A DNA stretch of 64,000 bases, from the NCBI GenBank assembly GCA_937974035.1, contig CALJIV010000049.1:10638-74637 (forward strand), given 5' to 3'. Numbering within the stretch: position 1 is the stretch's first letter; the number at the start of each line of letters is the position of its first letter. Below are positions 1 to 50,185 of this stretch, in pieces. Source of the stretch: an uncultured Phycisphaerales bacterium. Lineage in GTDB: Bacteria; Planctomycetota; Phycisphaerae; Phycisphaerales; UBA1924. A model generated the notes under the pieces. The model searched no databases. It saw only the letters and a list, made by a program, of their open reading frames with translations, and was not told where the DNA came from. Both the position numbers and the translations under genes were made by a program.

Positions 1-1
1 G

Positions 2-2809
2 ACGGGTCTGGACGCGGAGTTCAAGGCCCTCGATGAGCTGGTCAATGAGATCCGCTCTCGCCCCGCCCCCAAGGACCAGGCCGAAGTCCGGTCGCTGCGC
101 AACGCCATGAACGATGCGGAAGCGAAGCTCGCCGCCCTCGATAAGAAGGTGGCGGAGCTGGACGCCGCGATCGTGGTGATCGACCCGGAGAAGGACCCGC
201 GGCCGGACAAGTGGATGGAAGCGCCGATCGCCGAGCTGGCGGGGCTTCTCAGCGCGGTACTCAAGGACTGCCCCTCCGGCGTGACGATCGAGGGGGCACC
301 CGATCCGGTCGCCCTCCAGATTGAGGTGGACGAGTTCATCGCGCAGGTCAACGAGATTCGCGCGCGGCCGTGGGAGCAGCCCGACCTTACCCCCGTCGAG
401 CAGAAGGCCGCGCAGGCGGAGCTGCACCGTGCGGTGAAGGACGCGATTCTGCGCCAGCGCACCTTGAAGGCGTCGCTGACCAAGGCCAAGGCCGAGGCGC
501 GCGACGTCCTCACCCGGTACGTGCGCTCTCTTGAGCAGCAGAACAAGGACGCGGCGATCGTCCAGTCGGTCCCGCTGCGCGAGGCCTTCGCGATCGGCAT
601 CCGCGCCGCGGACCCGGAGCGGTATCAGGAGCTGGACTGGGCGGGGGTGAAGTCCAAGGTTGAGGCGCTGACGGGGTGGCTCAAGGGGCTGGAGGAGCAG
701 TTCGCGGTTTCGCTGGATGTTTCCCCCATGCCCGGCTCGGCGGTCGCCGTGGACGCCGCGGTGCGTGCCGTGGACGCCCGGCGCGAGCGGGCCCTGGCGA
801 GCAGCGTCGAACCGATGACCTCCAGCGGGAAGATGCCGGGCGATGATCCGGCGTATGCCGAGGCCACGGCGAGGCTGAAGGCGGAGCTGACGGCGTACAT
901 CGAAGGGGTGAAGCGCGTGCTCGCCGACGCGGTGGAGGTCGAGCGGCTGCTATCGCTTGGGTACGCCTACGAGGAAGCCGCGGGCGACAAGTCGATCAAG
1001 TCGCTGCATGAGTCGGTGAACAGCGCGGTGACCGACGGCGGCGCGTACGCGGACATCCGCGCCTCGGTGGAGAGCGTGCTGGGACGCGCGGCGGACCTGC
1101 AGCAGGTCGCCACCGTCACAGACGGCGTGCGCCTGATCAACCTCATCGCCCGCGCCGGGCAGGGGCCCGGAGGGGTGTCGCCCGCGATGGCCGCGTGGAA
1201 CAAGCTGCCGGAGATCGGTTTCCCCGCCGTGCCCGCGGACCTGGACGGGGCGCTGCGCATCCTGAATGAGCAGCTCATTCCCGCGCTGGCGCAGGTCTCC
1301 GACGCGGCCCGCCGCGCGGCTCTTGAGAGCCGCGCGAAAGAAGTGCTCAAGCGGATGTGGACGGTCTACGTGCTGGAGCGCAGCGCGGGCAACTTCGAGG
1401 CCGTGAACGCCGCGTTCTCCGGGCGTGCGAAGTACGGTGTGGCGGACGCGGACATCGCGCAGCTCCCCGCCTGGGCCCGGTACAACTTCGAGCGCTGGAA
1501 GCTCCTGCAGGATGTCGCGGCGGTGAACGTTCCCGACCCCAAGGAGCAGATCAAGCAGCTTCAATCACGGGTGCTGGCCTTCAACCAGGCCGTGGCCGGG
1601 CTGGGGCTGGATGGCCTGGAGGCGGTCAACACGATGGGCGCGCGGCTCAAGCCTTTCGCCGAGGGCAAGGACCTGGACCTGACGCGCGAGGGGCCGGGGC
1701 GGCTGTCGTGGACGACCACCGTCAACGACGCCGACGGGTACTCGGTGACGTACTCGTGGAAGGGGCCGAGCGGGCGTTCGTACTCGCTCGAGTTCCGGCG
1801 CGTCCATGAGAGCGCCGACGCGGCGAGCTATCTCTGCACGACGGAGGTTTCCGCCGGGCTTTTCATCGACCTTGTGGACGCCTACGGGAAGTGGGACGAG
1901 CTGAAGACGCTGACGAACGTCCTGGAGCCGCCGAACGACAACCGCGGGCCGCGGGTGGTGCGGTGGACGCTCGACGGGAAGCTGGACATCAGCCGTCCGA
2001 CGGACCCGGACAAGACGGGGAAGGGGTGGCACCGCTCGCTGGCGGTGGACGACATGCTCCGCAACCCGTACTACCCGCCGGGCGGCGAGCCGGAGCGCGG
2101 GCCGGACTACGTGGACCCCGTGGACTACATCTCTCCCAGTGCCGCGATTTACGTCTCGCGGCTGCTGGGGTGCCGTCTGCCGAGCTCGGAGGAGTGGAAG
2201 GCGGCGCTGGCGAAGTTCCCCGCGCGGACGGCCAACCTGCGGGACGCGGCCTACGCGGCGCAGCACGCGCACATTTCGCGCATCTTCGCCCAGGCGAACA
2301 AGCAGCCCGAGTACCCCAACTACGGCATGCTCAAGCCGACGCCCGCGGCGCTGGAGGCCCTGAAGGTCACCATCCCGCCCGCGGAGCAGGACGGCCAACC
2401 CGCGGTGGAGGGGACCGACGGCTATCTGTTCTTCGCGCCGGTGGACTTCGGCGAGCCCGGCGACGTCTTCCGCAACTTGATCGGCAACGTCTGGGAGTTC
2501 GTCTACGAGGCTCCCGCGGAGCTGGACGCCTTGGCCGTGCCCGCGTCTCCCGCGGACGTGACGGCCCTGACCCGCACCAGGGAGCAGCGCGACAAGGTGC
2601 GGGCCATCGGCGGCTCGGCGCTTTCGCCGAAGGAGCTGCCGATCGATCGCCCGATCGAGTTCAACTTCCTTGCCTCCCGGGCCGGCTTTACGGACGCCGG
2701 CTTCCGCCTCGCGTTTTCGACCGGCGCCGGCACGGGCGGGACGGGGAAGCCCGCCGAACGGCTCGCCAAGATCCTCTCTGTGGACTACCTCCCGGGGGCG
2801 AACCCCTGA
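2..2809 (+). CDS. 5-prime-truncated large protein with C-terminal FGE/SUMF1-like (C-type-lectin-fold) domain; paralog of the periplasmic part of the TagF fusion at 11086..14739
   Basis: The frame is open from base 2 with no stop before the ATG at 107, so the gene probably starts left of the window. The C-terminal ~330 aa carry FGE-family motifs: TTEVSAGLF, GCRLPSSEEWKAA, NLIGNVWEFV, GGSAL, GFRLAFS. These align motif for motif with 11086..14739. An Ala/Glu-rich helical region precedes the domain. Confidence 0.75.
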   Translation, partial: TGLDAEFKALDELVNEIRSRPAPKDQAEVRSLRNAMNDAEAKLAALDKKVAELDAAIVVIDPEKDPRPDKWMEAPIAELAGLLSAVLKDCPSGVTIEGAPDPVALQIEVDEFIAQVNEIRARPWEQPDLTPVEQKAAQAELHRAVKDAILRQRTLKASLTKAKAEARDVLTRYVRSLEQQNKDAAIVQSVPLREAFAIGIRAADPERYQELDWAGVKSKVEALTGWLKGLEEQFAVSLDVSPMPGSAVAVDAAVRAVDARRERALASSVEPMTSSGKMPGDDPAYAEATARLKAELTAYIEGVKRVLADAVEVERLLSLGYAYEEAAGDKSIKSLHESVNSAVTDGGAYADIRASVESVLGRAADLQQVATVTDGVRLINLIARAGQGPGGVSPAMAAWNKLPEIGFPAVPADLDGALRILNEQLIPALAQVSDAARRAALESRAKEVLKRMWTVYVLERSAGNFEAVNAAFSGRAKYGVADADIAQLPAWARYNFERWKLLQDVAAVNVPDPKEQIKQLQSRVLAFNQAVAGLGLDGLEAVNTMGARLKPFAEGKDLDLTREGPGRLSWTTTVNDADGYSVTYSWKGPSGRSYSLEFRRVHESADAASYLCTTEVSAGLFIDLVDAYGKWDELKTLTNVLEPPNDNRGPRVVRWTLDGKLDISRPTDPDKTGKGWHRSLAVDDMLRNPYYPPGGEPERGPDYVDPVDYISPSAAIYVSRLLGCRLPSSEEWKAALAKFPARTANLRDAAYAAQHAHISRIFAQANKQPEYPNYGMLKPTPAALEALKVTIPPAEQDGQPAVEGTDGYLFFAPVDFGEPGDVFRNLIGNVWEFVYEAPAELDALAVPASPADVTALTRTREQRDKVRAIGGSALSPKELPIDRPIEFNFLASRAGFTDAGFRLAFSTGAGTGGTGKPAERLAKILSVDYLPGANP

Positions 2810-2812: not shown

Positions 2813-3031
2813 TCAGTCGTTGGTCGGCACGAACGCCGTCGTGTGCGGCACGAAGGCGGTCTGCACCTGGTCATGGAGGGCAAGATTGCACCCCAGCGCA
2901 TCGCTCGCGGCGATATTGCCGCCGTCCTGCTGGGAAAAGGTGTAGGTGCCGGAGGAGGCAGTTTGGCTGGAGCAGCCGCCGACGACAAGAGCAAACGCGG
3001 CACACGCAGAGAGGCAGAGCAGACGACGCAT
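2813..3031 (-). CDS. small lipoprotein (72 aa), convergent with the FGE-like gene
   Basis: ATG at 3031 is preceded by GGGAG with a 6-nt spacer. The N-terminus MRRLLCLSACAAFALVVGGC has a signal peptide and lipobox. Third-position G/C is high in this frame. Stop TGA lies 3 nt from the stop of the convergent gene. Confidence 0.5.
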   Translation of the reverse strand: MRRLLCLSACAAFALVVGGCSSQTASSGTYTFSQQDGGNIAASDALGCNLALHDQVQTAFVPHTTAFVPTND

Positions 3032-3414
3032 GGTCGAACTCCCGTTGGCCCGTGGTTGCAGGCCTGCGGGAAAGGTCGGCAACTTTCGCCGATCTCCCGA
3101 GCTCGCGACCATGCGAGGGGCGTGTTCGCTCGGGTCTGCGACGATGGGGGGGAGCGGGGCGTGCGGGGGGGACGTGGGGGTGCTGACGGCTGGGAAGGGC
3201 GTGCGGGCGCGGTGGAACCCATGGTTCGGGGCCGAGCGGGCCCAGCGGCGTGGGAGACCTGTTGTTTACGGACCCCGCGATCTGTCTCAAACATCGGACC
3301 TGGGGGAAGTTGTGCGGGGGGGTAAGCCCGATATCATGGGCCCCGGCGGCCGCGCACGGGTGCGCGGCGGTTGTGACTTGATAGCCGCGCCTTTGGCGCA
3401 CGGAGTTGTCCAGC

Positions 3415-4347
3415 GTGATTGAACCGACCTCGGAACGCGGGAGGAAGCTGGCGGCGCTGTCCGCGCGCCTGCGAGTTCTGCACAGCGAGCTGGCCGATCA
3501 GCCCGCGGAGATCCGCGCCGAGCAGCTTCGGGACGAAGTCCAGAGGGCCACGGCGAGCATCGCCCCCGGCGAGCGGGAGGCCTTCCTGACCGGTCTTCTT
3601 GAGCAGTTCCCCACCTGGGCGGACGGGGGCCCGAGCGCCGCGCCTTCGCCCGCGCCTGCCACTGCCGCGGCTGCTCCCCCGCCGGAAATCAAAGACCCCA
3701 AGGTGCTGGCGGAGAAGCTCATCGAGAACTCCCACAACCTGAGCGACGCCGAGCGGGCGGACATCGCCTCTCGCCTCGCGGGGGCGGGCTTCTCGCTGGT
3801 GCAGGTGAAGGAGGCCCCGGGCGGGCTGCCCACGGCGCAGGTCACGGAGTTCAAGAAGGTGGTGGGGCTGCCGCCGGAGACGGAGGTCAATCCCGTCCGC
3901 CTGGTGGAGATCGCGTCCCTGCTCGCGGAGTTCACGCTGAAGCTCGAGCCCTGGGCGTGCAGCTATTGGCGCGACCTGGCTCCCGACGCGAAGAACCAGA
4001 TTTACCAGATCCTGAACAAGGATCTGCCGCGGTACGCGGCGGGGGACGACAAGCTGACGAAGGAGGGGATGCACAAGAACGTGTACAAGCTGCGCAGCCT
4101 GGTCTCGCTGCTGATGAAGGGCGTGATCGAGGCGGGCAAGCAGTTCTCGCGGGATCACCTTGCGAGGTACTCGATCGAGGCCATCCGCGAGGCGGCCCCG
4201 CGCGAGACGTTCAAGAGCGACGAGTACCGCTGCTGGAAGCAGTACGAGCGTCTGATGGAGGGGGTGGACGCGGCGGCGATCGAGAAGCGGCTCAAGCAGG
4301 TGATCGCCAGGGACGTGGACGCCGGGTTGAGCCAGGTGATCCGGTAG
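3415..4347 (+). CDS. hypothetical T6SS-associated protein in the fha/tagH position, with no FHA domain visible
   Basis: Good coding frame directly upstream of tssK. GTG at 3415 has a GGAG 9 nt upstream. The longest ORF starts at TTG 3406, but that codon abuts the GGAG. The protein has a helical N-terminus, a Pro/Ala-rich linker (SAAPSPAPATAAAAPPPE) and a ~200-aa C-terminal domain of unknown family. Confidence 0.7.
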   Translation: MIEPTSERGRKLAALSARLRVLHSELADQPAEIRAEQLRDEVQRATASIAPGEREAFLTGLLEQFPTWADGGPSAAPSPAPATAAAAPPPEIKDPKVLAEKLIENSHNLSDAERADIASRLAGAGFSLVQVKEAPGGLPTAQVTEFKKVVGLPPETEVNPVRLVEIASLLAEFTLKLEPWACSYWRDLAPDAKNQIYQILNKDLPRYAAGDDKLTKEGMHKNVYKLRSLVSLLMKGVIEAGKQFSRDHLARYSIEAIREAAPRETFKSDEYRCWKQYERLMEGVDAAAIEKRLKQVIARDVDAGLSQVIR

Positions 4348-4408: not shown

Positions 4409-5824
4409 ATGTCGCAGATCGGACAGATCCATTGGCACGAGGGGTTGTTCCTCCAGCCCCACCATCTCCAGACAATGCAGCGGGACCTGGCGGAGACCAG
4501 CGCGCGGGAGCGGCGGCTCTCGTGGCCCTACCCGTACGGCCTGATCGACCTGCGCATCTCGACCGATGCGCTTGAGAACATGCTGGTGCGGATCGACCGT
4601 CTTCGGGCGATCATGCCCAGCGGTCTGGAGATCGACGTTCCGGGCAACGCGGACATTCCGGCGCTGGACATCAAGCGTGTGTTCCAGGCCAGCAGCGGGT
4701 CGTTCACGGTGAGCCTGGCGGTGCCTCTGTGGCAGGCGCAGCGGGCCAACACCGTCGAGCCCACGCCCGCGCAGGGCGGCGGCGGCGCGGCTCACCGTGC
4801 CGTGGCGGAAGAGGCCCGCATCAAGCGGCTCTACCGCGTGGCCGAGATCACCCGTCCCGACGAGAACACGGGCGAAAACCCCCAGCCGGTGATCGTGCGC
4901 CGCTACAACGCGCGCCTGGTGGTGGAGGGGGACGACACCAGCGACATGGAAGTCCTGCCGCTGGTGCGCATCATCCACGCGGCGCAGGAGAGCACTGTTC
5001 CGCGTCCTGACCCCTCCTTCGTGCCGCCCTGCCTCGTGATCGGCGGCTCGCCGACGCTGCGCAACCTGCTCCGCGACCTGGGCGCGGCGGTGGAGGCCTC
5101 GCGCAAGGAGCTGGTGAACCAGATGACCCGCGGCGGGTTCGTCCCCGAGAACCTGCGCGGGCCGCAGCTCATGCAGCTGCTGCGTCTGCGCACGCTCAAC
5201 AAGTTCGCGGCGCGCCTGCCGGTGCTTGTGGCCGGGGGCACGACCGGCGGCGGCTCGATCACGCCCTATCAGGCGTACCTGGAGCTGCGCGAGCTGCAGG
5301 GCGAGCTGGCCGCGCTCTCGCCCGACCGCGATCCCTTCGAGGCTCCCCGCTACGACCACGACAATCCGGGCGTGGTGTTCGAGGAGCTGGACCGGCGCAT
5401 CCGGCCGCTGCTCCGCGGCGACATCCAGAAGAAGTTCCTGCAGGTGCCCTTCACGCGCCAGGACGGCGTCCTGGCGGCGACGCTCACCGACGAGCACCTC
5501 ACGCAGCCCAACGGCTACTTCATCGGCATCCGCACGAAGATGGACCCGACGCAGCTCGGCAAGCTGGTGGAGGATCAGGACCGCTTCAAGCTCATGCCGC
5601 GGAGCATGATCAAGCTCAACATCTACGGCATCAAGCTGGTGGAGGAGCGGCACCCGCCGATGGAGATGCCCAGCAGCATCGACCTGCACTACTTCCGCGT
5701 GGACATCGGCGAGAGCAAGAAGATGTGGGAGCGGATGACGGGCGAGAAGGCCATGGCCATCCGCTGGCCGGAGAACGAGAACTTCGAATACCAGGACGTG
5801 TCGCTGTACATGACGGTGCCGTGA
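4409..5824 (+). CDS. tssK: T6SS baseplate protein TssK
   Basis: 471 aa. The N-terminus IHWHEGLFLQPHHLQ matches the conserved TssK start. Position is before tssL-tssM. Confidence 0.9.
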   Translation: MSQIGQIHWHEGLFLQPHHLQTMQRDLAETSARERRLSWPYPYGLIDLRISTDALENMLVRIDRLRAIMPSGLEIDVPGNADIPALDIKRVFQASSGSFTVSLAVPLWQAQRANTVEPTPAQGGGGAAHRAVAEEARIKRLYRVAEITRPDENTGENPQPVIVRRYNARLVVEGDDTSDMEVLPLVRIIHAAQESTVPRPDPSFVPPCLVIGGSPTLRNLLRDLGAAVEASRKELVNQMTRGGFVPENLRGPQLMQLLRLRTLNKFAARLPVLVAGGTTGGGSITPYQAYLELRELQGELAALSPDRDPFEAPRYDHDNPGVVFEELDRRIRPLLRGDIQKKFLQVPFTRQDGVLAATLTDEHLTQPNGYFIGIRTKMDPTQLGKLVEDQDRFKLMPRSMIKLNIYGIKLVEERHPPMEMPSSIDLHYFRVDIGESKKMWERMTGEKAMAIRWPENENFEYQDVSLYMTVP

Positions 5825-5843: not shown

Positions 5844-6536
5844 ATGACGCTTGTCGAGATCTGCGAACCGCTGCTGGAGTACGTGTGCCGCCTCAACCGC
5901 CTCGGGCGCAAGGGCGGGCGCGCGGACTTCGGGGTCATCCGCGGCGAGATCAAGAGCCTGTTCGCGGAGATGCGGGCCAAGGCCGACGCCACGCCGGGCA
6001 TGAGCGGGCCCTACACCGAGATCGAGCTGGTCCTGATGTTCTTCGTGGACTCGATGATCCTCAACAGCAACCTCGGCGGGGGCTGGAAGCCGCTCTCGCA
6101 CGAGCGGGGCGAGCTGGGCTTCGAGGAGAAGTTCTGGGATCTGCTGGAGGACGCGCTCAAGGACCCGAGCGACTCGGCCACGCAGCGGCTGGCGGTGTTC
6201 TACGTGTGCATCGGCCTGGGCTTCACCGGGCTGTACACGGGGCAGTACGACTACATCCGCCGCAAGATGCTGGAGATCTCGGCGCGTCTGCGCGGGTTCA
6301 TCGACGCGGACCAGGCGGCGCGCATCTGCCCCGACGCCTACGAGAACGTGGACACGCGCAACCTGACGCAGCCTCCCAACCGCAGCCTGACGGCGATGGT
6401 CATCGCGCTGGTGGCGATCACGGGCGTGCTGCTGGTGGCCTACGTGCAGATGTTCCGCCATGCCGCGGGGGAACTCAGCGGCTCGCTGGGGGCGATCCAG
6501 CAGAGCCACGAGCAGAGCGGCAAGGCCGGGACCTGA
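5844..6536 (+). CDS. tssL: T6SS membrane-complex protein TssL (DotU family), with no peptidoglycan-binding extension
   Basis: 230 aa. DotU-like core (LAVFYVCIGLGFTGLY) and a single C-terminal TM helix (LTAMVIALVAITGVLLVAYV) with only a short tail. GAGGAA lies upstream of the ATG. Confidence 0.9.
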   Translation: MTLVEICEPLLEYVCRLNRLGRKGGRADFGVIRGEIKSLFAEMRAKADATPGMSGPYTEIELVLMFFVDSMILNSNLGGGWKPLSHERGELGFEEKFWDLLEDALKDPSDSATQRLAVFYVCIGLGFTGLYTGQYDYIRRKMLEISARLRGFIDADQAARICPDAYENVDTRNLTQPPNRSLTAMVIALVAITGVLLVAYVQMFRHAAGELSGSLGAIQQSHEQSGKAGT

Positions 6537-37042: not shown

Positions 37043-37092
37043 CCCCCGGCGCACGCCCGCCGGCGCAAGACCTCGACCCGCTCGAGGCGGTG

Positions 37093-38280: not shown

Positions 38281-38329
38281 ACTAGGTGACGTCAAAAACC
38301 CGCGTTCCGCGGGGACTGGGGAGTGCGTG

Positions 38330-43733: not shown

Positions 43734-44138
43734 ATGGCAAGCCCGAAGTCTGTCAAGGAACCCTCCATCGTCGCGCCGGCGGAGCCCGTCGCGCCCGAGG
43801 AGCCGGTGGTCGCCGATCCCGGCGAAGCCGCGAAGATCCAGATGGCCAAGGCCGAGCGCCAGGCCGCGTCCCTCACAGAGCAGAAGGTCAAGCCCTTCAA
43901 GCCCCGCGAGCAGCCCGAGTCCGGCGAAGAGGTCAAGACGACCTGGATCGAGATCGAGCTTGTGGACATGGACGACAAGCCCATCCCCGGCGAGCCATAC
44001 CGCATCACCATGCCCGACGGCAGCGTCCACACCGGAACGCTCGACGACAAGGGCTTCGCCCGTGTCGAAGGCCTCGAGCCCGGAAGCGTGAAGGTCACCT
44101 TCCCCAAGCTCGACAAAGACGCCTGGGAGCCCGCCTGA
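43734..44138 (+). CDS. hypothetical VgrG-adjacent protein (134 aa): disordered N-terminus plus ~55-aa prealbumin/CarboxypepD_reg-like beta-sandwich module
   Basis: The C-terminus WIEIELVDMDDKPIPGEPYRITMPDGSVHTGTLDDKGFARVEGLEPGSVKVTF has the x-D-x-x-G-x-P...G...TD-x-x-G-x-F...L-x-P-G pattern. Gene starts 15 nt after vgrG. Confidence 0.6.
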   Translation: MASPKSVKEPSIVAPAEPVAPEEPVVADPGEAAKIQMAKAERQAASLTEQKVKPFKPREQPESGEEVKTTWIEIELVDMDDKPIPGEPYRITMPDGSVHTGTLDDKGFARVEGLEPGSVKVTFPKLDKDAWEPA

Positions 44139-44141
44139 GCC

Positions 44142-44753
44142 ATGCCTACGCACCGCGTCAGCCAGGGCGAGTGCGCGTTAAGCATCGCCGACCAATACGG
44201 GTTCTTCTGGAAGACCGTCTGGGATCGTCCGGAGAACGAGCAGCTCCGCCGCCTCCGCGGCGATCCCAACGTCCTGCAGGAAGGCGACGAAATCTTCATT
44301 CCCGAAAAGGAGATCAAGGAAGTCTCCTGCGCCACCGAGCAGAAGCACCGCTTCCGCCGCAAGGGCGTCCCCGGCAAGCTTCGCCTCCGCGTGCTCGTGG
44401 ACGACGAGGCCCAGGCCAACACCGACTACGTCCTCATCATCGACGGCCGCTCGCGCAACGGCAAAACCGACTCCGACGGCTTCCTTGAGGAGTCCATCCC
44501 CGCGGGGGCCGTCGAGGGCGAGCTGCGCATCAAGACCAAGGGCGTCGAGCGCCGCTTCTACCTCGCCCTGGGCGCTCTCAACCCCATCGACACCGACATC
44601 GGCGTCCGCCAGCGCCTGCAGCAGCTCGGCTACAACGTCGATGCCGACTTCGAAGGCGCGGTGAAGCGCTTCCAGACCCTCCATGATCTTGAAGTGAGCG
44701 GCCGGGTGGACGACGCCTTCCGCCAGAAGCTCAAGGAGGTCTTCGGCCAATGA
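44142..44753 (+). CDS. LysM-like / beta-sandwich / PG_binding_1-like three-module protein with no signal peptide (203 aa)
   Basis: N-terminus HRVSQGECALSIADQYGFFWKTVWDRPENEQLRRLRGDPNVLQEGDEIFIP is LysM or phage tail-X-like. The C-terminus RQRLQQLGYNVDADFEGAVKRFQTLHDLEVSGRVDDAFRQKL is PG_binding_1-like. Confidence 0.7.
   Translation: MPTHRVSQGECALSIADQYGFFWKTVWDRPENEQLRRLRGDPNVLQEGDEIFIPEKEIKEVSCATEQKHRFRRKGVPGKLRLRVLVDDEAQANTDYVLIIDGRSRNGKTDSDGFLEESIPAGAVEGELRIKTKGVERRFYLALGALNPIDTDIGVRQRLQQLGYNVDADFEGAVKRFQTLHDLEVSGRVDDAFRQKLKEVFGQ
44312..44368 (+). repeat. 57-nt perfect direct repeat, copy A
   Basis: gatcaaggaagtctcctgcgccaccgagcagaagcaccgcttccgccgcaagggcgt is identical base for base to 47526..47582. 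The flanking coding sequence of the two paralogs is clearly diverged. Confidence 0.9.
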
Positions 44754-45277
44754 TCTTCGAGCACATCGCCAGGCTCTTCCACGGAGCCAGCGCGCACAAC
44801 ACCCTCAACATCCGCACGATGGAGCTTTACTTTCAGAAGTCTCCGGGCGTGCCCGAGGGTGATTCCCGCGGCATCAGCGGCCTGGAATACCGCGTCCTTA
44901 CCGACGGCCGTGAGACCCAGTCCGGCACCACCGAGGAAGACGGCCTCATCGCCGTCCAGTGCCGCCCCAACACCGAGACCGTTCTGGAGCTGCTCGTCTC
45001 CGGTTCTCCCGTCGCTCAGTACCGCCTTACCTTCCGCGACGAGCCTTTCGAGCCCGCCGGCGAGCTCATCGGCGTGCAGCGCCGCCTGCGCACGCTCGGC
45101 TATCAGCTCGGCACCAGCGGGCCCACCCGCGACGGCGTGGACGGCACGATGGGCCGCCGCACCGACAAGGCCATCCAGGACTTCCAGATCGACGCCGGGC
45201 TCTCGTTTGATTCCGTGGTGGGCGATCAGACCCGGAGGGCCCTGAACGACGCCGTGGGAGGGAGTGCGCAGTCATGA
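44750..45277 (+). CDS. beta-sandwich / PG_binding_1-like protein (175 aa)
   Basis: C-terminus QRRLRTLGYQLGTSGPTRDGVDGTMGRRTDKAIQDFQIDAGLSFDSVVGDQTRRAL is a typical putative peptidoglycan-binding domain pattern. ATGA overlaps link it to both neighbours. Confidence 0.7.
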   Translation: MIFEHIARLFHGASAHNTLNIRTMELYFQKSPGVPEGDSRGISGLEYRVLTDGRETQSGTTEEDGLIAVQCRPNTETVLELLVSGSPVAQYRLTFRDEPFEPAGELIGVQRRLRTLGYQLGTSGPTRDGVDGTMGRRTDKAIQDFQIDAGLSFDSVVGDQTRRALNDAVGGSAQS

Positions 45278-46434
45278 TCGACGTTGTCGCCACCGACGAA
45301 TGGCGGATCGTTGTCCCCCTCAGGTTTCGCCGCTGGAACCACGGCCAGCTTCCGCACATCGACTCTCCGGAAATCGACGACCGCGGCTACAAGATGGGCA
45401 CGCGCCCGTCCTCCTGGGGATCCACCGACGTCCGCGGCCCGACCTTCGGCGTGGTCAAGGGTGATTCCGTCCGCGTCGCCGTCGTCGCCGAGGACATCGA
45501 CGAAAGCGCCCCGCTCTACGCCAGCAGCTCCAGCCCCTCCATTCTCAAGGTGAACGCGACCAACGGCGGCCCGCTCCCGTCCAGCGGTGAGCTTTGGGTC
45601 ACCGGCATGGCGCAGGGCACCGCCGCGCTGCGCATCCACCTCGGCTCGGCGAGCGGGCCGATCCTCGCCGAGGCCGACGTCCGCGTGCACCGGCTGCTGC
45701 GCGTCACCCTCACGCCCCACATCGTGCGGATCGACTCGACCACCACGACGGGTGTGAACCCGGCCATGCCCATCGACGACATGGTGCGCCGCCTGCGGGC
45801 GATCTGGCGGCCCTGCGGCATCGACTTCCGCATCGCGCCCACGGTCGCCGACAGCGTCCGCCTGCCCAGCAACCGCGTGAACTTCATGGACATCAACACA
45901 GGCACGTGGCTCCAGGAGGTCCGCACCCTGCTGGGCCTCCAGCGCACGCGCCTGAGCCTGCCCGCGGGCACGCGCGACGAGTCCATCAACTGGTACATCA
46001 TCCAGGAGTTTGCTCCCAACGCCAACGGCAACACGGTCGTGGGACTGGGCATCTCGCGTCAGACCGCCGACCAGTGGGGCGTTGACGACACCGGCATCAT
46101 CGTCGCCGCCCAGGCGCACGGCTCGCCGCGAGATCCCGAGTTCACAGCCCGCACGCTCGCCCACGAGGTCGGCCACTTCTTCCGGCTCGCGCATGTGCAG
46201 CGACGCAACGCCGACAACCCTGTCAAGGACACCTACGGCCGCCGTCAGCTCATGTACCCGCTGTCCAATATCACCGGCGGCACCAACGGCATCGCCGTTC
46301 CCCGCTTCAACGACGTGGGCTACGGCGACACCGTCCGCGGCTGCCTGCTCACCATGAAGAACCACGCGCGCCACAGCAGCGACGGCGAGTGCGCCACCGC
46401 ACGCAACGCCATCCACTCCAACAACTGGTTCTGA
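45274..46434 (+). CDS. metzincin-type zinc metalloprotease with N-terminal Big_2-like Ig domain (386 aa); candidate T6SS effector
   Basis: HEVGHFFRLAH gives the H-E-x-x-H-x-x-x-x-x-H spacing of metzincins. A Met-turn-like QLMYP lies 19 residues later. ILKVNATNGG...WVTGMAQGTAALRIHLG resembles a Big_2 domain. No signal peptide. Confidence 0.7.
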   Translation: MIDVVATDEWRIVVPLRFRRWNHGQLPHIDSPEIDDRGYKMGTRPSSWGSTDVRGPTFGVVKGDSVRVAVVAEDIDESAPLYASSSSPSILKVNATNGGPLPSSGELWVTGMAQGTAALRIHLGSASGPILAEADVRVHRLLRVTLTPHIVRIDSTTTTGVNPAMPIDDMVRRLRAIWRPCGIDFRIAPTVADSVRLPSNRVNFMDINTGTWLQEVRTLLGLQRTRLSLPAGTRDESINWYIIQEFAPNANGNTVVGLGISRQTADQWGVDDTGIIVAAQAHGSPRDPEFTARTLAHEVGHFFRLAHVQRRNADNPVKDTYGRRQLMYPLSNITGGTNGIAVPRFNDVGYGDTVRGCLLTMKNHARHSSDGECATARNAIHSNNWF

Positions 46435-47307
46435 ATGCTTCTCGCCGCCCTCTTCATCCCCCTTGTCGCACTTGCTCAGCCTCAGTCCGCACCGCCTCCC
46501 CACAGGAATACACCCGCCCAGAGGGCTACGCCCATGACCCCAGAAACTCTCACGGCACAGGTCCAAAGCGGAGCCTCCGACGCCATCGCCACCGCGTCCA
46601 AGATGGGCGCGTCCGCCGTGCCCACCCTCAAGAAGCTGCTCGAGGACCCCGACCCCGACGTGCGCCTCATGACCATCCGCTGCTTCGATGCCGTCGGCGG
46701 CGACGACGCCATCGAGGCGGGCGTGCGCTCCCTGCTCGACGAAGACTCGCAGGTCGCCTCCCGCGCCGCGGTCCTGCTCCACAACCACCCGCCCCGCGGC
46801 CAGGGCGCCAAGCTCTTCGCGGCGTTCAACCACTCGACCGAGGTCGCCGTGCGCGTGGAAATCCCCAAGATCGCCGGCCGCATCGGCGATGAAAACGACA
46901 TCCGCCTCTGGACCACCGCGCTGCCGCTGGTGAAGGAGCCCGAAGTCCGCGACGGCGTCCAGATCGGCCTCGCGAAGATGGGGCACGAGCCCTCGCGCGA
47001 CTGGTTCAAGCTGCAGCTCGCCGCGGCGGACGGCCCGCCCGCGCTGCCTTGGCTCGAAGCCGCGGAGTACATGGCCGATCCGTGGGTCGTCCCCACGCTG
47101 GCGAAGCTCCTGGACAAGCGCTCGGAGGTCTACACCGCGGCGGCGGACTTTGAGCCGGTGCAGGTGCGCGTCTGTGATATTGCCGCGTACGTCATCTTCA
47201 CCATCACCAAGCACAAGGTTGAGTTCCGCGTCTCCAAGCGCCGTTACCTGGAGACGGAGATCGACGAGGCCCGCAAAGCCGCGGCGCAGCCGCCCGCGGC
47301 ACCCTGA
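46435..47307 (+). CDS. secreted HEAT-repeat protein (290 aa); candidate immunity protein
   Basis: Signal peptide MLLAALFIPLVALAQPQ. HEAT-like repeats are visible (DPDPDVRLMTIRCFDAVG, DEDSQVASRAAVLL, EPEVRDGVQIGLAKMG). The ATG abuts the stop of the metzincin gene (TGAATG). Confidence 0.65.
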   Translation: MLLAALFIPLVALAQPQSAPPPHRNTPAQRATPMTPETLTAQVQSGASDAIATASKMGASAVPTLKKLLEDPDPDVRLMTIRCFDAVGGDDAIEAGVRSLLDEDSQVASRAAVLLHNHPPRGQGAKLFAAFNHSTEVAVRVEIPKIAGRIGDENDIRLWTTALPLVKEPEVRDGVQIGLAKMGHEPSRDWFKLQLAAADGPPALPWLEAAEYMADPWVVPTLAKLLDKRSEVYTAAADFEPVQVRVCDIAAYVIFTITKHKVEFRVSKRRYLETEIDEARKAAAQPPAAP

Positions 47308-47310
47308 GCC

Positions 47311-48015
47311 ATGCCCGACACCAACGCTTCATCCAACCCCCGCGCCCCCGTCGGCGAGGGCAACTACGTTGTCGCCCACGGCGATTGCATGGCCAGCATC
47401 GCCGAGGCCCACGGCCACTTCTGGGAAAAGCTCTGGAACCTTCCCGAGAACCGCACGCTCAAGAACACACGCAAGGACCCCAACGTCCTGCTCCCCGGCG
47501 ACAAGGTCACGATCCCCGATATCGTGATCAAGGAAGTCTCCTGCGCCACCGAGCAGAAGCACCGCTTCCGCCGCAAGGGCGTGCCCTCGAAGCTCCGCCT
47601 GACGATCCTGGAGTTCAACGAGCCGCTCAAGAACCAGCCCTTCCGCCTCATCCTCGAGAACGGCAGCACGAAGAAGGGCCACACCGACAGCGAAGGCAAG
47701 CTGGAGGTTGCCATCCCGCCCCGGGCACGACGCGCCAAGCTCATCGTCGGCCCCGCGGACCGCGAGCGCCACTACGACCTTGATCTGGGCGGCCTCGATC
47801 CGGTGACCACCATCCGCGGCCAGAAGCAGCGGCTCAACGCCCTCGGCTTCGCCGCGGGCAGCGAGGATGACTATTCCAGCGAGGAGTTCATCGAAGCTGT
47901 GCGCAAGTTCCTCGCCGAAGCGGAGCTTGAAGTGAAGGACGAGCTCGACGACGCCGCCCAGGACAAGCTCGAAGACTGGTACCGCAAGTCGAACGTGGGG
48001 GAGCGCCGTGGGTGA
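47311..48015 (+). CDS. second LysM-like / beta-sandwich / PG_binding_1-like protein (234 aa), paralog of 44142..44753
   Basis: NYVVAHGDCMASIAEAHGHFWEKLWNLPENRTLKNTRKDPNVLLPGDKVTIP parallels the first copy. It shares the segment KEVSCATEQKHRFRRKGVP. The C-terminus is QKQRLNALGFAAGSEDDYSSEEFIEAVRKF. No signal peptide. Confidence 0.7.
   Translation: MPDTNASSNPRAPVGEGNYVVAHGDCMASIAEAHGHFWEKLWNLPENRTLKNTRKDPNVLLPGDKVTIPDIVIKEVSCATEQKHRFRRKGVPSKLRLTILEFNEPLKNQPFRLILENGSTKKGHTDSEGKLEVAIPPRARRAKLIVGPADRERHYDLDLGGLDPVTTIRGQKQRLNALGFAAGSEDDYSSEEFIEAVRKFLAEAELEVKDELDDAAQDKLEDWYRKSNVGERRG
47526..47582 (+). repeat. 57-nt perfect direct repeat, copy B
   Basis: Identical to 44312..44368 and in the same reading frame, encoding IKEVSCATEQKHRFRRKGV. 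Confidence 0.9.
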
Positions 48016-50185
48016 CGTTGCGGTCGGTAAAGGTGACGCGGGCGGTTCGAACACGCTGAACACGCGCCTGCAGCTTCCATGCGTGGACGGGCACTGCCAC
48101 CTCTTCGGCTCAAGCCTCACCACCGCGGACCGCTTCCATGAGTGGTCGCAGGACGGGCAGGTGGTGATCGTGCTCGAAGGGACGAACGGTGCGACGAGCC
48201 AGACCTTCCCCCCCAGCACGCGCGTGAAGACCTGGAAGTTCGTCACGAACCGCGCCTACGGGGGCTGGGTTCCCAACTATCACACGCTCAAGGCCCGGTC
48301 CGTGGCGCAGTGCTCGCAGAAGACCTGGCCGCCGGCGATCGGCAAGGACAACGCCATCGATCTCGGCGTCGGACAGGGCGTGATACTCGACATCGGCCTT
48401 GCCCGCTCCGACACGAAGCTGGCCCGCCTGAGCAGTTTCGCATCGAAGTACAAGGGCCTGGCCCACGCGGCGGGCATCGACGGCGACAACGCCGACGTCT
48501 GCCTGCGGGACGTCTGGCGGCAGGACGCCCGCGCATGCGTCTCGCTGCTGCTGGACCTGGGCTATACGCCGCTGCCGCTGCCGAATGTCAACGCCGTGCT
48601 CTGGGCCGCGGGTCTCACGCCGCGGTGCATGCCCGACCCCGACGGGTTTTATCCGCCGGGCAAGAACTACTTCTGGGGCAAGCGCGAGGGTCTTCAGTAC
48701 ACCGTCGAAGCGCTGGCCGAGGTCGCCGCGCGCTTCCCCGGCGAGGTCTGGGCCTTCGTTCCCTTCGATCCGCGCCGGGCCGTCTGCCCGCCCAAGGGTG
48801 AATCTCGTACGCCGCTTCAGGTCGTGCAGTACGCGCTGGAGCACCTGGGCTTCGCGGGCGTCAAGCTCTACACCCGCTGCGGCTGGATGCCCATGGGCAA
48901 CAGGCTCCTGTACCCCGACAAGGGCGACCAGCTCGACGCCAAGCTCCACGAGCTGTACCGCTACCTCTGCGACAAGGACGTGCCCGTCCTCAACCACACC
49001 AGCCCCACGGGCTTCCCGCCCGCCTTCGCGTTCGAGCTTCCGCTCATCTACCACCAGGGCCACCCCGATATCCCGAGCATGCCCGCCCGTCTTCGCCCCG
49101 GCGAGTACACGGGGAGCATGCAGGCCGAATACTTCGCCGAGACCGCGGCGTGGCTCGCCTGCATCGCCGCCGCGAACTACTGCCATTACATTCAGAACAC
49201 CGTATCTCCCTACGCCTGGGAGCCGGTCCTGAAGGACTACCCCAAGCTCCGCCTCTGCTTTGCGCACAGCGGCGGGCGCGTCAGCGCCGTTGCCAAGTTC
49301 GTCGAGAGCAAGTTCGACCCTGCTCTCTGGGACGAGCTGCAGGCAGAGTGGGGACGCAAGGCCTACGCCTGGGACAACGTCGAGAAGGACTGGACCCGCG
49401 AAACTGGCGGCCCCATCTACGACCTCTACACCAACCCCTGCGTCGCCTCGGGCAAGTGGTTCAAGGACGAGCTCTTCCGCCGCTGCTGCCACTCCTTCGC
49501 CGACGACCTGCTCCAGGGCAAGCTGGATGTCATGAAGCCCGATTGGAGCTACTGGAACAGGTCGACCAGAAGCTACGAGATGCTGTTCGCGGGCGTCGAG
49601 CGCCACTCCATCCTCGGCTACAGCTTCACCAGCGCCAACGAGCTCGTCTCCGTCGGCAAGTTCGAGATGCGCGTCAAGGTGCTTGAGCACATCAACGCCC
49701 TGCTCAAGAACGAATGGGCCCCGTGGCTCAACCAGTGGGCCGCGCGCTACCCCCTCGACTGGTACTCCAAGATCATCGAGCTCTACAAGAACCCCAAGTA
49801 CCCCAACCTCTACAGCGACATCGCCTACTACTCCGGCGAAGAGGAGAAGTGGTTCACGCGCCTGCTCAAGCCCTTCGTGGAGCACGCCCGCAAGGACCCC
49901 AAGGTCGCAGAGCGCACCATCTTCGGCACCGACTGGTGGATGACCGAGATGGACGGCATCAGCCCGCGGACTTTCTGGCGGTGGGTGGAGAAGGTCCTCG
50001 ACGACAAGGAGCCGATGTGGACCACCTGGACGACCTACGCCCCGCTCAACTACCTGAACCTTGAGCCGCGCATGCCCACGATGGAGTCGTGGTTCAAGAA
50101 GTGCAACCCCTCCGCGCAGCTTCCCGTCTGGTGGAGCAGCGTGAAGAAGTACTACGAGCAGAAGCGGGCGAAGTCGCAGAACTGA
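48008..50185 (+). CDS. large amidohydrolase-fold (metal-dependent TIM-barrel hydrolase) protein, 725 aa; candidate T6SS effector
   Basis: An H-x-H motif in CVDGHCHLF lies near the N-terminus. CFAHSGG and FGTDWWM (late His and Asp) follow in the order expected for amidohydrolase-superfamily metal ligands. GTG start overlaps the upstream stop by 8 nt. No signal peptide. Confidence 0.6.
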   Translation: MGDVAVGKGDAGGSNTLNTRLQLPCVDGHCHLFGSSLTTADRFHEWSQDGQVVIVLEGTNGATSQTFPPSTRVKTWKFVTNRAYGGWVPNYHTLKARSVAQCSQKTWPPAIGKDNAIDLGVGQGVILDIGLARSDTKLARLSSFASKYKGLAHAAGIDGDNADVCLRDVWRQDARACVSLLLDLGYTPLPLPNVNAVLWAAGLTPRCMPDPDGFYPPGKNYFWGKREGLQYTVEALAEVAARFPGEVWAFVPFDPRRAVCPPKGESRTPLQVVQYALEHLGFAGVKLYTRCGWMPMGNRLLYPDKGDQLDAKLHELYRYLCDKDVPVLNHTSPTGFPPAFAFELPLIYHQGHPDIPSMPARLRPGEYTGSMQAEYFAETAAWLACIAAANYCHYIQNTVSPYAWEPVLKDYPKLRLCFAHSGGRVSAVAKFVESKFDPALWDELQAEWGRKAYAWDNVEKDWTRETGGPIYDLYTNPCVASGKWFKDELFRRCCHSFADDLLQGKLDVMKPDWSYWNRSTRSYEMLFAGVERHSILGYSFTSANELVSVGKFEMRVKVLEHINALLKNEWAPWLNQWAARYPLDWYSKIIELYKNPKYPNLYSDIAYYSGEEEKWFTRLLKPFVEHARKDPKVAERTIFGTDWWMTEMDGISPRTFWRWVEKVLDDKEPMWTTWTTYAPLNYLNLEPRMPTMESWFKKCNPSAQLPVWWSSVKKYYEQKRAKSQN

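What the first reader, a model, noticed from the sequence alone, without database searches (positions are those of the whole stretch)
1..50185. H1-type T6SS gene order, but without recognisable TssJ, PAAR, FHA, PpkA/PppA or TagQRST
The transcription order X-tssK-tssL-tssM-tagF and tssA-tssB-tssC-hcp-tagJ-tssE-tssF-tssG-clpV-vgrG reproduces the P. aeruginosa H1-T6SS order. That order is fha1-tssJ1-tssK1-tssL1-tssM1-tagF1-pppA-ppkA-tagTSRQ plus tssA1...vgrG1. Three things differ: both blocks are co-directional, no TssJ-like lipoprotein gene sits before tssK, and no PAAR-like small ORF is visible near vgrG. TssM is ~1500 aa, and the extra mass lies in the periplasmic part after the third TM. TssL has no peptidoglycan-binding extension. 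The outer-membrane anchoring and spike-tip solutions in this lineage may therefore be different.
Basis: partly seen in the sequence, partly recalled or inferred. Interest (0 to 1): 0.6.

Follow-up and report, generated by a model that had tools for sequence, protein, structure and literature searches.

The report
H1-like T6SS with hidden TssJ and PAAR
This is a complete H1-like type VI secretion gene cluster from a Phycisphaerales (Planctomycetota) bacterium; the anchor lipoprotein (TssJ) and spike-tip protein (PAAR) that looked missing do exist, one as a diverged gene 1.1 kb outside the window and one on another contig.

Summary
The locus is H1/i3-like: TssC scores 832 bits against P. aeruginosa TssC1, and a short TssA and TagJ are present. 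No Pfam model for TssJ, PAAR or DUF4150 matches anywhere in the 98.5%-complete genome.

- **TssJ.** A conserved 178-aa lipoprotein lies 1.1 kb upstream of window base 1. Its model (pLDDT 87) has only TssJ/Lip/SciN/IglE structures as its top 12 PDB fold matches. It occurs in 16 of 28 T6SS-positive and 0 of 20 T6SS-negative Phycisphaerae genomes.
- **PAAR.** A PAAR-like DUF4280 protein (E 3e-27) sits on contig C22. Its orthologues in relatives lie directly after vgrG.
- **PpkA and TagR.** Gene "X" is a transmembrane pseudokinase in the PpkA slot. Both X and the TagF-like protein carry a periplasmic FGE-sulfatase domain, the fold of TagR.

Some features are unusual. The ~1040-aa periplasmic part of TssM matches no canonical TssM by sequence, profile or fold. 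A TpsB/TpsA pair sits between tagF and tssA in all related loci examined that cover that stretch. Fha and PppA are absent from the locus.

Verdict: a new variant of a known system, of moderate interest.

The parts
1..2809 (+). C-terminal 935 aa of X (full length 1267 aa, starting at window -994): cytoplasmic pseudokinase, one TM helix, long helical periplasmic stalk, FGE-sulfatase-like domain. Three parts of the system lie off the window and cannot be listed as rows: (a) the TssJ-like lipoprotein, 178 aa, at window -1626..-1090 (genome C49:9011-9547, +); (b) u652, a conserved 652-aa protein and first gene of the cluster, at window -3611..-1653 (C49:7026-8984, +); (c) the PAAR-like DUF4280 protein, 128 aa, at genome C22:50133-50519 (+).
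   Evidence: **X.** FGE-sulfatase E 3.4e-4, below the Pfam cut-off. Homologues P0149 and P0160 carry PF03781, and P0159 carries Pkinase. In the alignment VAIK is kept, HRD is replaced by HGE/HGG/HGA, and the DFG motif and activation loop are deleted. No kinase hit by Pfam or PDB sequence search.

**TssJ-like lipoprotein.** The G23-C24 lipobox is invariant in 23 homologues. AF2 pLDDT 87. The top 12 Foldseek PDB hits are all TssJ, Lip, SciN or IglE, with E 1e-6 to 1e-3. Present in 16/28 T6SS+ and 0/20 T6SS- Phycisphaerae genomes. PF12790 does not match.

**u652.** No Pfam hit. It lies between the DUF4280 gene and the TssJ-like gene in relatives.

**DUF4280.** PF14107 at 95 bits. Orthologues lie next to vgrG in relatives.
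2813..3031 (-). Small conserved lipoprotein (72-aa precursor, lipobox VVGGC), transcribed divergently.
   Evidence: The minus-strand translation has homologues in L001/L004 (49% identical, E 1e-8) and L005. A 65-aa minus-strand gene is called at the same spot in two relatives.
3406..4347 (+). u313: conserved 313-aa cytoplasmic protein directly upstream of tssK, in the fha/tssJ slot. Function unknown.
   Evidence: Upstream of tssK in L001/L004, L003, L005 and L007 (28-79% identical); L008 also holds a copy but gave no tssK hit. No family match. hhalign against a TagH sequence is not significant.
4409..5824 (+). tssK
   Evidence: PF05936 E 3e-69. PDB TssK hits.
5844..6536 (+). tssL (DotU only, no peptidoglycan-binding domain).
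   Evidence: PF09850 E 2e-17. TM helix at 179-197 of 230 aa.
6561..11060 (+). tssM, long form: canonical N-terminal 460 aa plus a ~1040-aa non-canonical periplasmic region.
   Evidence: PF14331 E 9e-56. TIGR03348 covers only model positions 31-450 of 1168. hhalign to a canonical TssM matches only the N-terminal part. The AF2 model of residues 470-1499 has pLDDT 90.4: helical, then a beta domain. No TssM among the fold hits and nothing at E<1e-3. The family comprises 114 clusters at 50% identity.
11086..14739 (+). TagF-like N-terminal domain, TM helix (334-352), helical stalk and periplasmic FGE-sulfatase domain.
   Evidence: PF03781 E 2e-9, above the cut-off. TagF likeness rests on position, the motifs FGKHPGWDD and SRDGKGRTKYP, and PF09867 as the only recurring weak hit (3/8 homologues, best E 0.12). 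It is not supported by Pfam or NCBIfam on this protein, by hhalign or by pairwise alignment.
14779..17007 (+). TpsB (ShlB/FhaC-type Omp85 transporter).
   Evidence: PF03865 E 5e-10. Conserved at this position in L001-L008.
17095..28707 (+). TpsA: 3870-aa filamentous-haemagglutinin-like exoprotein.
   Evidence: TPS domain PF05860 E 4e-26 at residues 59-284. Gly/Thr/Ala/Asn-rich composition with a distinct C-terminal ~270 aa. The N-terminus is 37% identical to the TpsA upstream of tssA in a Caballeronia T6SS cluster.
28782..29843 (+). tssA (short, TssA1-type).
   Evidence: PF06812; TIGR03363 at 198 bits, above the cut-off.
29892..31966 (+). tssB (29892-30389) and tssC (30473-31966).
   Evidence: PF05591, PF05943 and PF18945. 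The best PDB hit for TssC is 5n8n_B, P. aeruginosa TssC1, at 832 bits.
32051..33583 (+). Three tandem hcp genes (32051-32545, 32611-33144, 33110-33583).
   Evidence: PF05638 E 2e-35, 4e-27 and 2e-27.
33687..34583 (+). tagJ (ImpE)
   Evidence: PF07024 E 1e-37. The reading frame is confirmed by GC3.
34576..41074 (+). tssE (34576-35088), tssF (35099-37042), tssG (37006-38280), clpV (38327-41074).
   Evidence: PF04965, PF05947, PF06996 and the AAA_2/ClpB domains.
41089..41613 (+). u174: a real coding frame with no family match.
   Evidence: GC3 0.91. No Pfam or NCBIfam hit. Absent between clpV and vgrG in G014.
41634..43718 (+). vgrG, the only copy in the genome.
   Evidence: PF05954, PF04717 and PF22178. 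No second vgrG by tblastn.
43734..50185 (+). Post-vgrG cargo island: u134, two LysM-like/PG_binding_1 paralogues, a PG_binding_1 protein, an HExxH metalloprotease candidate, a signal-peptide HEAT-repeat protein and a 725-aa amidohydrolase-like protein.
   Evidence: Pfam. Sequences inspected. u134 is not PAAR-like: it gives only weak prealbumin-like hits at E>0.01.

Best explanation
The window holds most of a ~54-kb T6SS-i3 (H1-like) locus of a Phycisphaerales bacterium (genome C49:7026-60822). It most likely works as a canonical contractile injector.

**Machine (shown by family or fold matches).**
- TssL, TssM and a diverged TssJ-fold lipoprotein would form the envelope-spanning complex.
- TssE, F, G and K, with the single VgrG, form the baseplate and spike.
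- An unlinked PAAR-like DUF4280 protein caps the spike.
- Three Hcp paralogues form the tube, or the tube plus cargo carriers.
- TssBC forms the sheath, ClpV recycles it, and a short TssA with TagJ coordinates firing.

The "missing" parts are therefore present but diverged or displaced.

**What is really different (shown).**
- The periplasmic region of TssM is about 300 aa longer than a canonical one and is unrelated to it by sequence, profile or whole-chain fold search.
- Fha and PppA are absent from the cluster.
- The PpkA slot holds a transmembrane pseudokinase.
- The TagR-type FGE-sulfatase domain is fused, on long helical stalks, to the periplasmic ends of both the pseudokinase and the TagF-like protein.
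- A TpsB/TpsA pair sits between tagF and tssA in all related loci examined that cover that stretch.

**Inferred, not shown.**
- The two FGE-domain fusion proteins replace the TagQRST-PpkA-Fha phosphorylation cascade with a direct trans-envelope signal that gates assembly.
- The giant TpsA acts as a surface adhesin that holds target cells within reach.
For: - Core genes by Pfam/NCBIfam.
- i3 affinity: TssC 832 bits to P. aeruginosa TssC1, and 70-76% identity to proteobacterial TssC in clusters with the same gene order and tagJ.
- TssJ: invariant lipobox, confident model, top 12 fold hits all TssJ-family, strict co-occurrence with T6SS and mostly on the tssC contig.
- PAAR-like: DUF4280 at 95 bits over the full domain length, with six Cys. 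It is 46-55% identical to DUF4280 genes, five of the six sitting next to vgrG in relatives. It is found in 9/27 other T6SS+ genomes and 0/20 T6SS- genomes. DUF4280 is described as PAAR-like in PMC5349215.
- The genome has a single vgrG and a single tssC.
- Pseudokinase.
- TagR has an FGE-sulfatase domain that engages PpkA (PMC13713981).
- TPS.
Against: - No TssJ HMM hit at E<=1.
- The transthyretin-like fold is common, and the TM-scores normalised by query length are only 0.36-0.56.
- The TssM region that should bind TssJ shows no detectable similarity to the canonical TssJ-binding domain, so the interaction is unproven.
- DUF4280 is unlinked here and flanked by a TPR protein and an ATP-grasp protein.
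- The closest T6SS+ relative, G067, has neither DUF4280 nor PAAR.
- TagF homology is not statistically supported.
Confidence: 0.78

Rival explanations
1. One reading: the system truly lacks TssJ and PAAR function. Outer-membrane passage is provided by something else, for example the conserved Omp85-family TpsB or the long TssM alone, and VgrG fires without a tip protein.
For: - No TssJ or PAAR HMM hit.
- None of 27 other T6SS+ Phycisphaerae genomes has PF12790.
- The TssM periplasmic region is non-canonical and longer.
- TpsB is conserved inside the cluster.
- Five T6SS+ relatives have neither PAAR nor DUF4280.
- TssJ-less T6SSs are described in Acinetobacter, in Xanthomonas i3 and in Agrobacterium i5.
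Against: - The T6SS-linked lipoprotein has a TssJ fold and co-occurs only with T6SS.
- DUF4280 orthologues sit next to vgrG in relatives.
- TpsB has an adjacent cognate TpsA with a bona fide TPS domain, which explains its presence.
- The same pair occurs in a Caballeronia cluster that also has a canonical tssJ.
Confidence: 0.1
2. The lipoprotein has a TssJ-like transthyretin fold but serves another T6SS-associated role, such as an accessory lipoprotein like TagV/TagM/TagQ or an immunity protein. The real outer-membrane partner of the long TssM is still unidentified; one candidate is the small lipoprotein at 2813-3031.
For: - The gene is separated from tssK by X and u313 rather than adjacent to tssK as in canonical clusters.
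- 12 of 28 T6SS+ Phycisphaerae genomes lack this family.
- A second small lipoprotein is conserved in the cluster.
Against: - The best fold hits are specifically TssJ proteins, including chains taken from TssJ-TssM complexes (4y7o, 6ixh). Generic transthyretins score 3-4 orders of magnitude worse.
- The mature size of about 155 aa matches TssJ.
Confidence: 0.1
3. The locus is a decaying or inactive horizontally acquired T6SS. Loss of Fha and PppA, a dead kinase and displacement of the PAAR-like gene would then be signs of erosion.
For: - T6SS is patchy in the class (28/201 genomes) and rare in this family (2 of 10 sampled).
- TssB and TssC are 74-75% identical to proteobacterial ones, which is compatible with transfer.
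Against: - All core genes are intact open frames with host-like GC3 of 0.81-0.97.
- The accessory genes and their order are conserved down to 37% TssM identity across Phycisphaerae, which argues for long-term purifying selection.
Confidence: 0.05

Closest known systems
Pseudomonas aeruginosa H1-T6SS (subtype i3)
   Same: - The order tssA-B-C-hcp-tagJ-tssE-F-G-clpV-vgrG and tssK-L-M-tagF.
- TssC is most similar to TssC1 (832 bits).
- A short TssA together with TagJ.
- A TagR-type FGE-sulfatase domain is present.
   Different: - The two blocks are co-directional.
- tssJ is displaced upstream and diverged beyond HMM reach.
- There is no Fha, PppA or TagQST.
- The kinase is catalytically dead.
- The FGE domain is fused in cis to the pseudokinase and to the TagF-like protein instead of being the free TagR protein.
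- The TssM periplasmic domain is unrelated in sequence and about 300 aa longer.
- The tip protein is DUF4280 rather than PAAR.
- There are three hcp genes.
- A TPS pair is embedded.
T6SS cluster on a Caballeronia sp. M1242 plasmid (NZ_CP071131, locus L019)
   Same: - TssB 75%, TssC 74% and ClpV 58% identical.
- A ShlB-family transporter and a filamentous-haemagglutinin-type TpsA lie directly upstream of tssA. The TpsA N-terminus is 37% identical.
- A PAAR-like protein lies downstream of vgrG.
   Different: - It has canonical tssJ, a canonical 1208-aa tssM, tagF, an active-type Ser/Thr kinase, a PP2C phosphatase and tagH.
- Its membrane-complex block is divergently oriented.
- BLAST finds no similarity for TssJ, TssL, TagF or the TssM periplasmic part.
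Francisella IglG and the DUF4280 PAAR-like family (PF14107)
   Same: The C22 protein matches the full DUF4280 model at 95 bits and is Cys-rich. The family is proposed to cap VgrG as PAAR does (PMC5349215).
   Different: - It works here with an i3-type rather than a type-ii T6SS.
- It has no long N-terminal extension.
- It is unlinked to the cluster in this genome.
T6SSs annotated as TssJ-less (Acinetobacter with TsmK; Xanthomonas i3; Agrobacterium i5)
   Same: No tssJ is detectable by standard models.
   Different: A TssJ-fold lipoprotein is in fact encoded with this cluster. No compensating TsmK-type factor needs to be invoked.

Membership tests
T6SS-i, subtype i3 (H1-like) | Core genes tssA-M, hcp, vgrG and clpV are present. 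| tested here: met
   Pfam/NCBIfam hits for 12 core genes. TssJ is found only by fold.
T6SS-i, subtype i3 (H1-like) | The sheath protein groups with H1-type TssC. | tested here: met
   5n8n_B (TssC1) scores 832 bits; the next hits score 502 and 382 bits. This is a similarity ranking, not a phylogeny.
T6SS-i, subtype i3 (H1-like) | Threonine-phosphorylation pathway (PpkA, PppA, Fha). | tested here: not met
   No FHA domain in the cluster. The kinase domain lacks the HRD Asp and the DFG motif. No PP2C phosphatase among the cluster's Pfam hits.
TssJ (PF12790, T6SS-SciN) | Match to the family HMM. | tested here: not met
   No hit at E<=1 in the genome. hhalign to one canonical TssJ gives only E 8e-4 at 24% probability.
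TssJ (PF12790, T6SS-SciN) | Lipoprotein of about 150 aa with the TssJ transthyretin-like fold. | tested here: met
   Invariant G-C lipobox. pLDDT 87. The top 12 PDB hits are TssJ, Lip, SciN or IglE.
TssJ (PF12790, T6SS-SciN) | Encoded with, and co-occurring with, T6SS core genes. | tested here: met
   16/28 versus 0/20 genomes; 15 of the 16 copies lie on the tssC contig.
TssJ (PF12790, T6SS-SciN) | Binds the C-terminal domain of TssM. | not testable with these tools
PAAR (PF05488) and DUF4150 (PF13665) | Match to the family HMM anywhere in the genome. | tested here: not met
   no hit at E<=1.
PAAR-like DUF4280 (PF14107) | Match above the curated cut-off, with conserved cysteines. | tested here: met
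   95 bits against a cut-off of 26.3, model positions 1-109 of 109. Cys at 13, 20, 33, 54, 78 and 109. Which four correspond to the family's conserved Cys was not mapped.
PAAR-like DUF4280 (PF14107) | Genetic link to vgrG or the T6SS. | tested here: inconclusive
   Unlinked in this genome (C22). Orthologues at 46-53% identity lie directly after vgrG in G014, G024, G033, G049 and G191. The family is present only in T6SS+ genomes.
TssM (TIGR03348; PF14331, PF06761, PF06744) | N-terminal TM helices and the IcmF-related NTPase-like domain. | tested here: met
   PF14331 E 9e-56. TM helices at 11-29, 37-55 and 443-461.
TssM (TIGR03348; PF14331, PF06761, PF06744) | Canonical periplasmic IcmF-related and C-terminal domains. 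| tested here: not met
   No Pfam hit. TIGR03348 scores 273 bits against a cut-off of 388 and covers model positions 31-450 only. hhalign matches the N-terminal part only. No TssM among the Foldseek hits.
TagF (PF09867, TIGR03373) | Match to the family HMM or profile. | tested here: inconclusive
   No hit for the window protein. 3 of 8 homologues hit PF09867 weakly (best E 0.12). hhalign and pairwise alignment are not significant. The position after tssM and two short motifs fit.
Hanks-type Ser/Thr kinase (PpkA) | Catalytic residues: VAIK Lys, HRD Asp, DFG. | tested here: not met
   The Lys is kept. HRD is replaced by HGE/HGG/HGA. DFG and the activation loop are deleted across the family. No Pkinase hit.
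Two-partner secretion (type Vb) | A TpsA with an N-terminal TPS domain next to a ShlB/FhaC-type TpsB. | tested here: met
   PF05860 E 4e-26 and PF03865 E 5e-10.

The most novel reading that the evidence does not exclude
The envelope-facing half of an otherwise conserved i3 T6SS has been rebuilt for the planctomycete cell envelope.
- TssM has a new periplasmic domain about 300 aa longer than canonical, and TssJ is strongly diverged.
- Two signalling proteins, a pseudokinase and a TagF-like protein, each carry a TagR-type FGE domain on a helical stalk of about 500 aa. They may replace the TagQRST-PpkA-Fha phosphorylation cascade with direct trans-envelope gating.
- A conserved giant TpsA adhesin may act as an integral target-contact factor.
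Probability: 0.3. Interest if true: 0.6.

Novelty: new variant of a known kind. Interest (0 to 1): 0.4.

Why it matters
- **Annotation.** "TssJ-less" and "PAAR-less" calls made from HMM annotation can be artefacts of divergence or of the window edge. A fold-level search and a whole-genome search recovered both parts here. The same may apply to other clusters reported as TssJ-less.
- **Biology.** The locus describes a T6SS lineage in Phycisphaerae, present in 28 of 201 sampled genomes. Its cytoplasmic machine is about 75% identical to proteobacterial ones, while its periplasmic parts have diverged beyond recognition. That contrast offers a natural experiment on how the membrane complex adapts to a different envelope.
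- **Regulation.** The cis fusion of a TagR-type domain to a TagF-like protein and to a dead PpkA-like kinase gives a testable, simplified model of post-translational T6SS control.

Tried and rejected
  - 3406-4347 is cytoplasmic, has no family match and shows no significant TagH similarity.
  - 41089-41613 has no match at all.
  - 43734-44138 gives only weak prealbumin-like hits (E>0.01) and has a disordered N-terminal half, so it is not PAAR-like.
  - 2813-3031 is a small lipoprotein gene on the minus strand, with a mature part too short (about 50 aa) to be TssJ.
- **TpsB as the outer-membrane component of the T6SS.** Rejected as the main reading, because it has a cognate TpsA and the same pair co-exists with a canonical tssJ in Caballeronia.
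- **Sequence searches of PDB** with the TssM, TagF-like, X N-terminal and u313 profiles gave nothing useful.
- **Whole-chain Foldseek of the TssM periplasmic model** gave only generic helical-repeat hits.
- **Whole-protein Pfam scan of the 3870-aa protein** missed the TPS domain. Scanning the first 700 aa found it, and the other four pieces gave nothing.
- **Single-protein search of 301 Planctomycetota genomes** with the TssM periplasmic part found only one other genome and missed known relatives, so it is too insensitive to describe the distribution.
They are now described inside the first part.
Full report
**Source and gene calls.** The window is C49:10638-74637 of a 2.94-Mb, 98.5%-complete genome with about 69% G+C. 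Its relatives are MAGs of Planctomycetota, class Phycisphaerae, order Phycisphaerales. High G+C produces many spurious ORFs, so I fixed the reading frames by third-position G+C. ORFs 33596-34108 and 34133-34588 in the raw ORF list are wrong-frame artefacts. The real gene there is 33687-34583. ORFs 3406-4347, 41089-41613 and 43734-44138 are real coding frames.

**Checking the observation.** Pfam and NCBIfam confirm the following genes:
- tssK (4409-5824);
- tssL (5844-6536), DotU only, with one TM helix at 179-197 of 230 aa;
- tssM (6561-11060);
- tssA (28782-29843), short type, TIGR03363;
- tssB and tssC;
- three tandem hcp genes (32051-33583);
- tagJ/ImpE (33687-34583);
- tssE, tssF, tssG, clpV and vgrG (41634-43718).

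The order matches the description, and every gene is on the + strand except a small lipoprotein gene at 2813-3031. TssC scores 832 bits against P. aeruginosa TssC1 (5n8n_B). The next-best sheath protein scores 502 bits and V. cholerae VipB 382 bits. Proteobacterial plasmid clusters whose TssC is 72-76% identical show the same tssA-B-C-hcp-tagJ-tssE-F-G-clpV order. The H1/i3 label is therefore sound. Six-frame searches of the whole genome find no PF12790 (TssJ), PF05488 (PAAR) or PF13665 (DUF4150) at E<=1. The four FHA-domain proteins in the genome are unlinked. One is fused to a GspE-type ATPase, one to a GAF/histidine-kinase module, and two are small FHA-only proteins.

**TssJ.** The cluster does not begin at window base 1. 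Upstream on the contig, after a branched-chain amino acid ABC transporter operon, lie three genes:
- a 652-aa protein of unknown function;
- a 178-aa lipoprotein (C49:9011-9547, window -1626..-1090);
- the start of gene X, whose full length is 1267 aa.

The lipoprotein family has 22 members in a 5.8-billion-protein collection and none carries a Pfam domain. Residues G23 and C24 of the lipobox are invariant. The AlphaFold2 model has mean pLDDT 87, above 90 over most of the mature part. Foldseek against the PDB returns only T6SS lipoproteins as its 12 best hits:
- Serratia Lip (4a1r);
- P. aeruginosa TssJ1 (3zhn);
- EAEC TssJ/SciN (3rx9, 4y7o chains C and D, 6ixh chains A and F);
- Francisella IglE (5amt).

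Those hits have E 1e-6 to 1e-3, probability 1.0 and target-normalised TM 0.55-0.73. Generic transthyretins follow at E>1e-2. Among Phycisphaerae genomes, the family occurs in 16 of 28 that carry tssC and in none of 20 that lack it (Fisher p=1.3e-5). Of the 16 copies, 15 lie on the same contig as tssC. No canonical PF12790 hit exists in any of the 27 other T6SS+ Phycisphaerae genomes. Divergence of TssJ is therefore a trait of the lineage, not of this genome alone.

**PAAR.** PF14107 (DUF4280) matches one place in the genome, C22:50133-50519. The protein is 128 aa, scores 95 bits over the full model length and has six cysteines. DUF4280 is the PAAR-like family defined from Francisella IglG (PMC5349215). 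The gene is flanked here by a TPR protein and an ATP-grasp protein. However, it is 46-55% identical to DUF4280 genes in relatives. In G014, G024, G033, G049 and G191 those genes lie directly after vgrG; in four of these the u652 gene follows, and in G014 u652 and then the TssJ-like lipoprotein gene are seen. DUF4280 is found in 9 of 27 other T6SS+ genomes and 0 of 20 T6SS- genomes. Classical PAAR is found in 14 of the 27, in three of them on the contig that also carries the TssJ-like gene. This genome has one vgrG, one tssC and no orphan hcp or vgrG. The DUF4280 protein is therefore the obvious tip for this spike. Five T6SS+ relatives have neither family, including G067, the closest one. This is unexplained.

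**Regulatory genes.** X has no Pfam kinase hit. Its N-terminal 300 aa do retrieve a homologue, P0159, that carries Pkinase domains. In the alignment the VAIK lysine is kept. The HRD motif is replaced by HGE, HGG or HGA across the family. The DFG motif and the activation loop are deleted. X is therefore a transmembrane pseudokinase in the PpkA position. It has one TM helix, a long helical periplasmic region and a C-terminal FGE-sulfatase-like domain.

The gene after tssM (11086-14739) has the same periplasmic layout, with a clear PF03781 hit (E 2e-9). Its 330-aa cytoplasmic head is TagF-like by position and by the motifs FGKHPGWDD and SRDGKGRTKYP. PF09867 is the only recurring weak hit among its homologues (3 of 8, best E 0.12). 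Formal tests of TagF homology failed.

TagR of the H1-T6SS is itself an FGE-sulfatase-superfamily protein, and its FGE domain is modelled to engage the periplasmic domain of PpkA (PMC13713981). The TagR-type domain is therefore present here twice, fused in cis. I infer, without direct evidence, that these two fusion proteins pass an envelope signal straight to the cytoplasmic assembly step. That would fit the absence of Fha, PppA and TagQST.

**TssM.** Only residues ~41-465 match TssM models (TIGR03348 positions 31-450 of 1168). hhalign against a canonical 1208-aa TssM aligns only the N-terminal part. The periplasmic part (462-1499) is about 300 aa longer than that of the canonical protein. 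It defines a family of 114 clusters at 50% identity. Seven distant members that I checked also carry only PF14331. The AF2 model of residues 470-1499 is confident (pLDDT 90.4). It is almost entirely helical and ends in a beta domain of about 140 residues. This layout resembles the canonical one in outline. Foldseek nevertheless finds no TssM chain and nothing at E<1e-3. Whether the C-terminal beta domain is a diverged TssJ-binding domain could not be tested.

**Embedded two-partner secretion system.** Gene 14779-17007 is a ShlB/FhaC-type transporter. Gene 17095-28707 encodes a 3870-aa Gly/Thr/Ala/Asn-rich protein with a TPS secretion domain (E 4e-26). The run tssL-tssM-tagF-like-tpsB-tpsA is conserved in all related loci examined that cover that stretch, down to 37% TssM identity, including Tepidisphaera and a Phycisphaera mikurensis-labelled MAG; u313 is present in all loci that reach that far upstream, and tssK in all but L008. 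A Caballeronia plasmid T6SS (TssC 74% identical) also has a ShlB-family gene and a haemagglutinin-type TpsA directly upstream of tssA. The TpsA N-termini are 37% identical. That cluster also has a canonical tssJ. The TPS pair therefore does not substitute for TssJ. More likely it is an adhesin module travelling with this T6SS lineage. A 2026 review of T6SS accessory factors does not mention two-partner secretion.

**Divergence pattern.** Identities to the Caballeronia cluster are:

| Protein | Identity |
|---|---|
| TssB | 75% |
| TssC | 74% |
| ClpV | 58% |
| TssE, TssF, VgrG, Hcp1 | 41-43% |
| TssG | 35% |
| TssM (N-terminal part only) | 31% |
| TssA | 29% |
| TssK | 25% |
| TssL, TssJ, TagF, TssM periplasmic part | no BLAST similarity |

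The cytoplasmic contractile machine is conserved, while everything in or across the envelope has diverged.

**Verdict.** What remains is a lineage-specific variant of the i3 T6SS with the following features:
- a diverged TssJ;
- a non-canonical long TssM;
- a DUF4280 tip protein;
- a dead kinase;
- cis-fused TagR-type sensor domains;
- an embedded TPS adhesin system.

I rate it a new variant of a known kind, with interest 0.4.

Noticed in passing
window 2813-3031 (-): A small conserved lipoprotein gene (72-aa precursor, lipobox VVGGC) is transcribed divergently between X and u313. Homologues lie at the same spot in L001/L004 and L005.
   Followed up: partly
window 45274-47307: A 386-aa protein carries an HEVGHFFRLAH zinc-metalloprotease motif. 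It is followed by a HEAT-repeat protein with a signal peptide. Together they look like an effector/immunity pair in the post-vgrG island.
   Followed up: no
genome C19:1000-5300: A second, unlinked TpsB/TpsA pair. The TpsB is 43% and the TpsA N-terminus 47% identical to the copies embedded in the T6SS cluster.
   Followed up: no
L019 (Caballeronia sp. M1242 plasmid NZ_CP071131) 10520-18336: A proteobacterial i3 T6SS cluster also carries a ShlB-family gene and a haemagglutinin-type TpsA immediately upstream of tssA. The TPS-T6SS linkage is therefore not confined to Phycisphaerae.
   Followed up: partly
G067 (same family, complete genome), L017: The closest T6SS+ relative has the TssJ-like lipoprotein but neither DUF4280 nor PAAR. 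No vgrG lies within 17 kb downstream of its clpV.
   Followed up: partly
window 17095-28707: Method note: hmmscan of the whole 3870-aa protein reported no family at E<=0.01, whereas the first 700 aa alone hit the TPS domain at E 4e-26.
   Followed up: yes
genome C49:7026-8984 (upstream of the window) and window 3406-4347: Two conserved T6SS-linked proteins (652 aa and 313 aa) have no detectable family. The 313-aa protein is directly upstream of tssK in L001/L004, L003, L005 and L007; L008 holds a copy but gave no tssK hit. The 652-aa protein follows the DUF4280 gene in relatives.
   Followed up: partly
window 50213-58955: The cluster ends at 50185. SpoIID-like (minus strand), DprA, LexA, QueA and Mur-ligase genes follow.
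   Followed up: no
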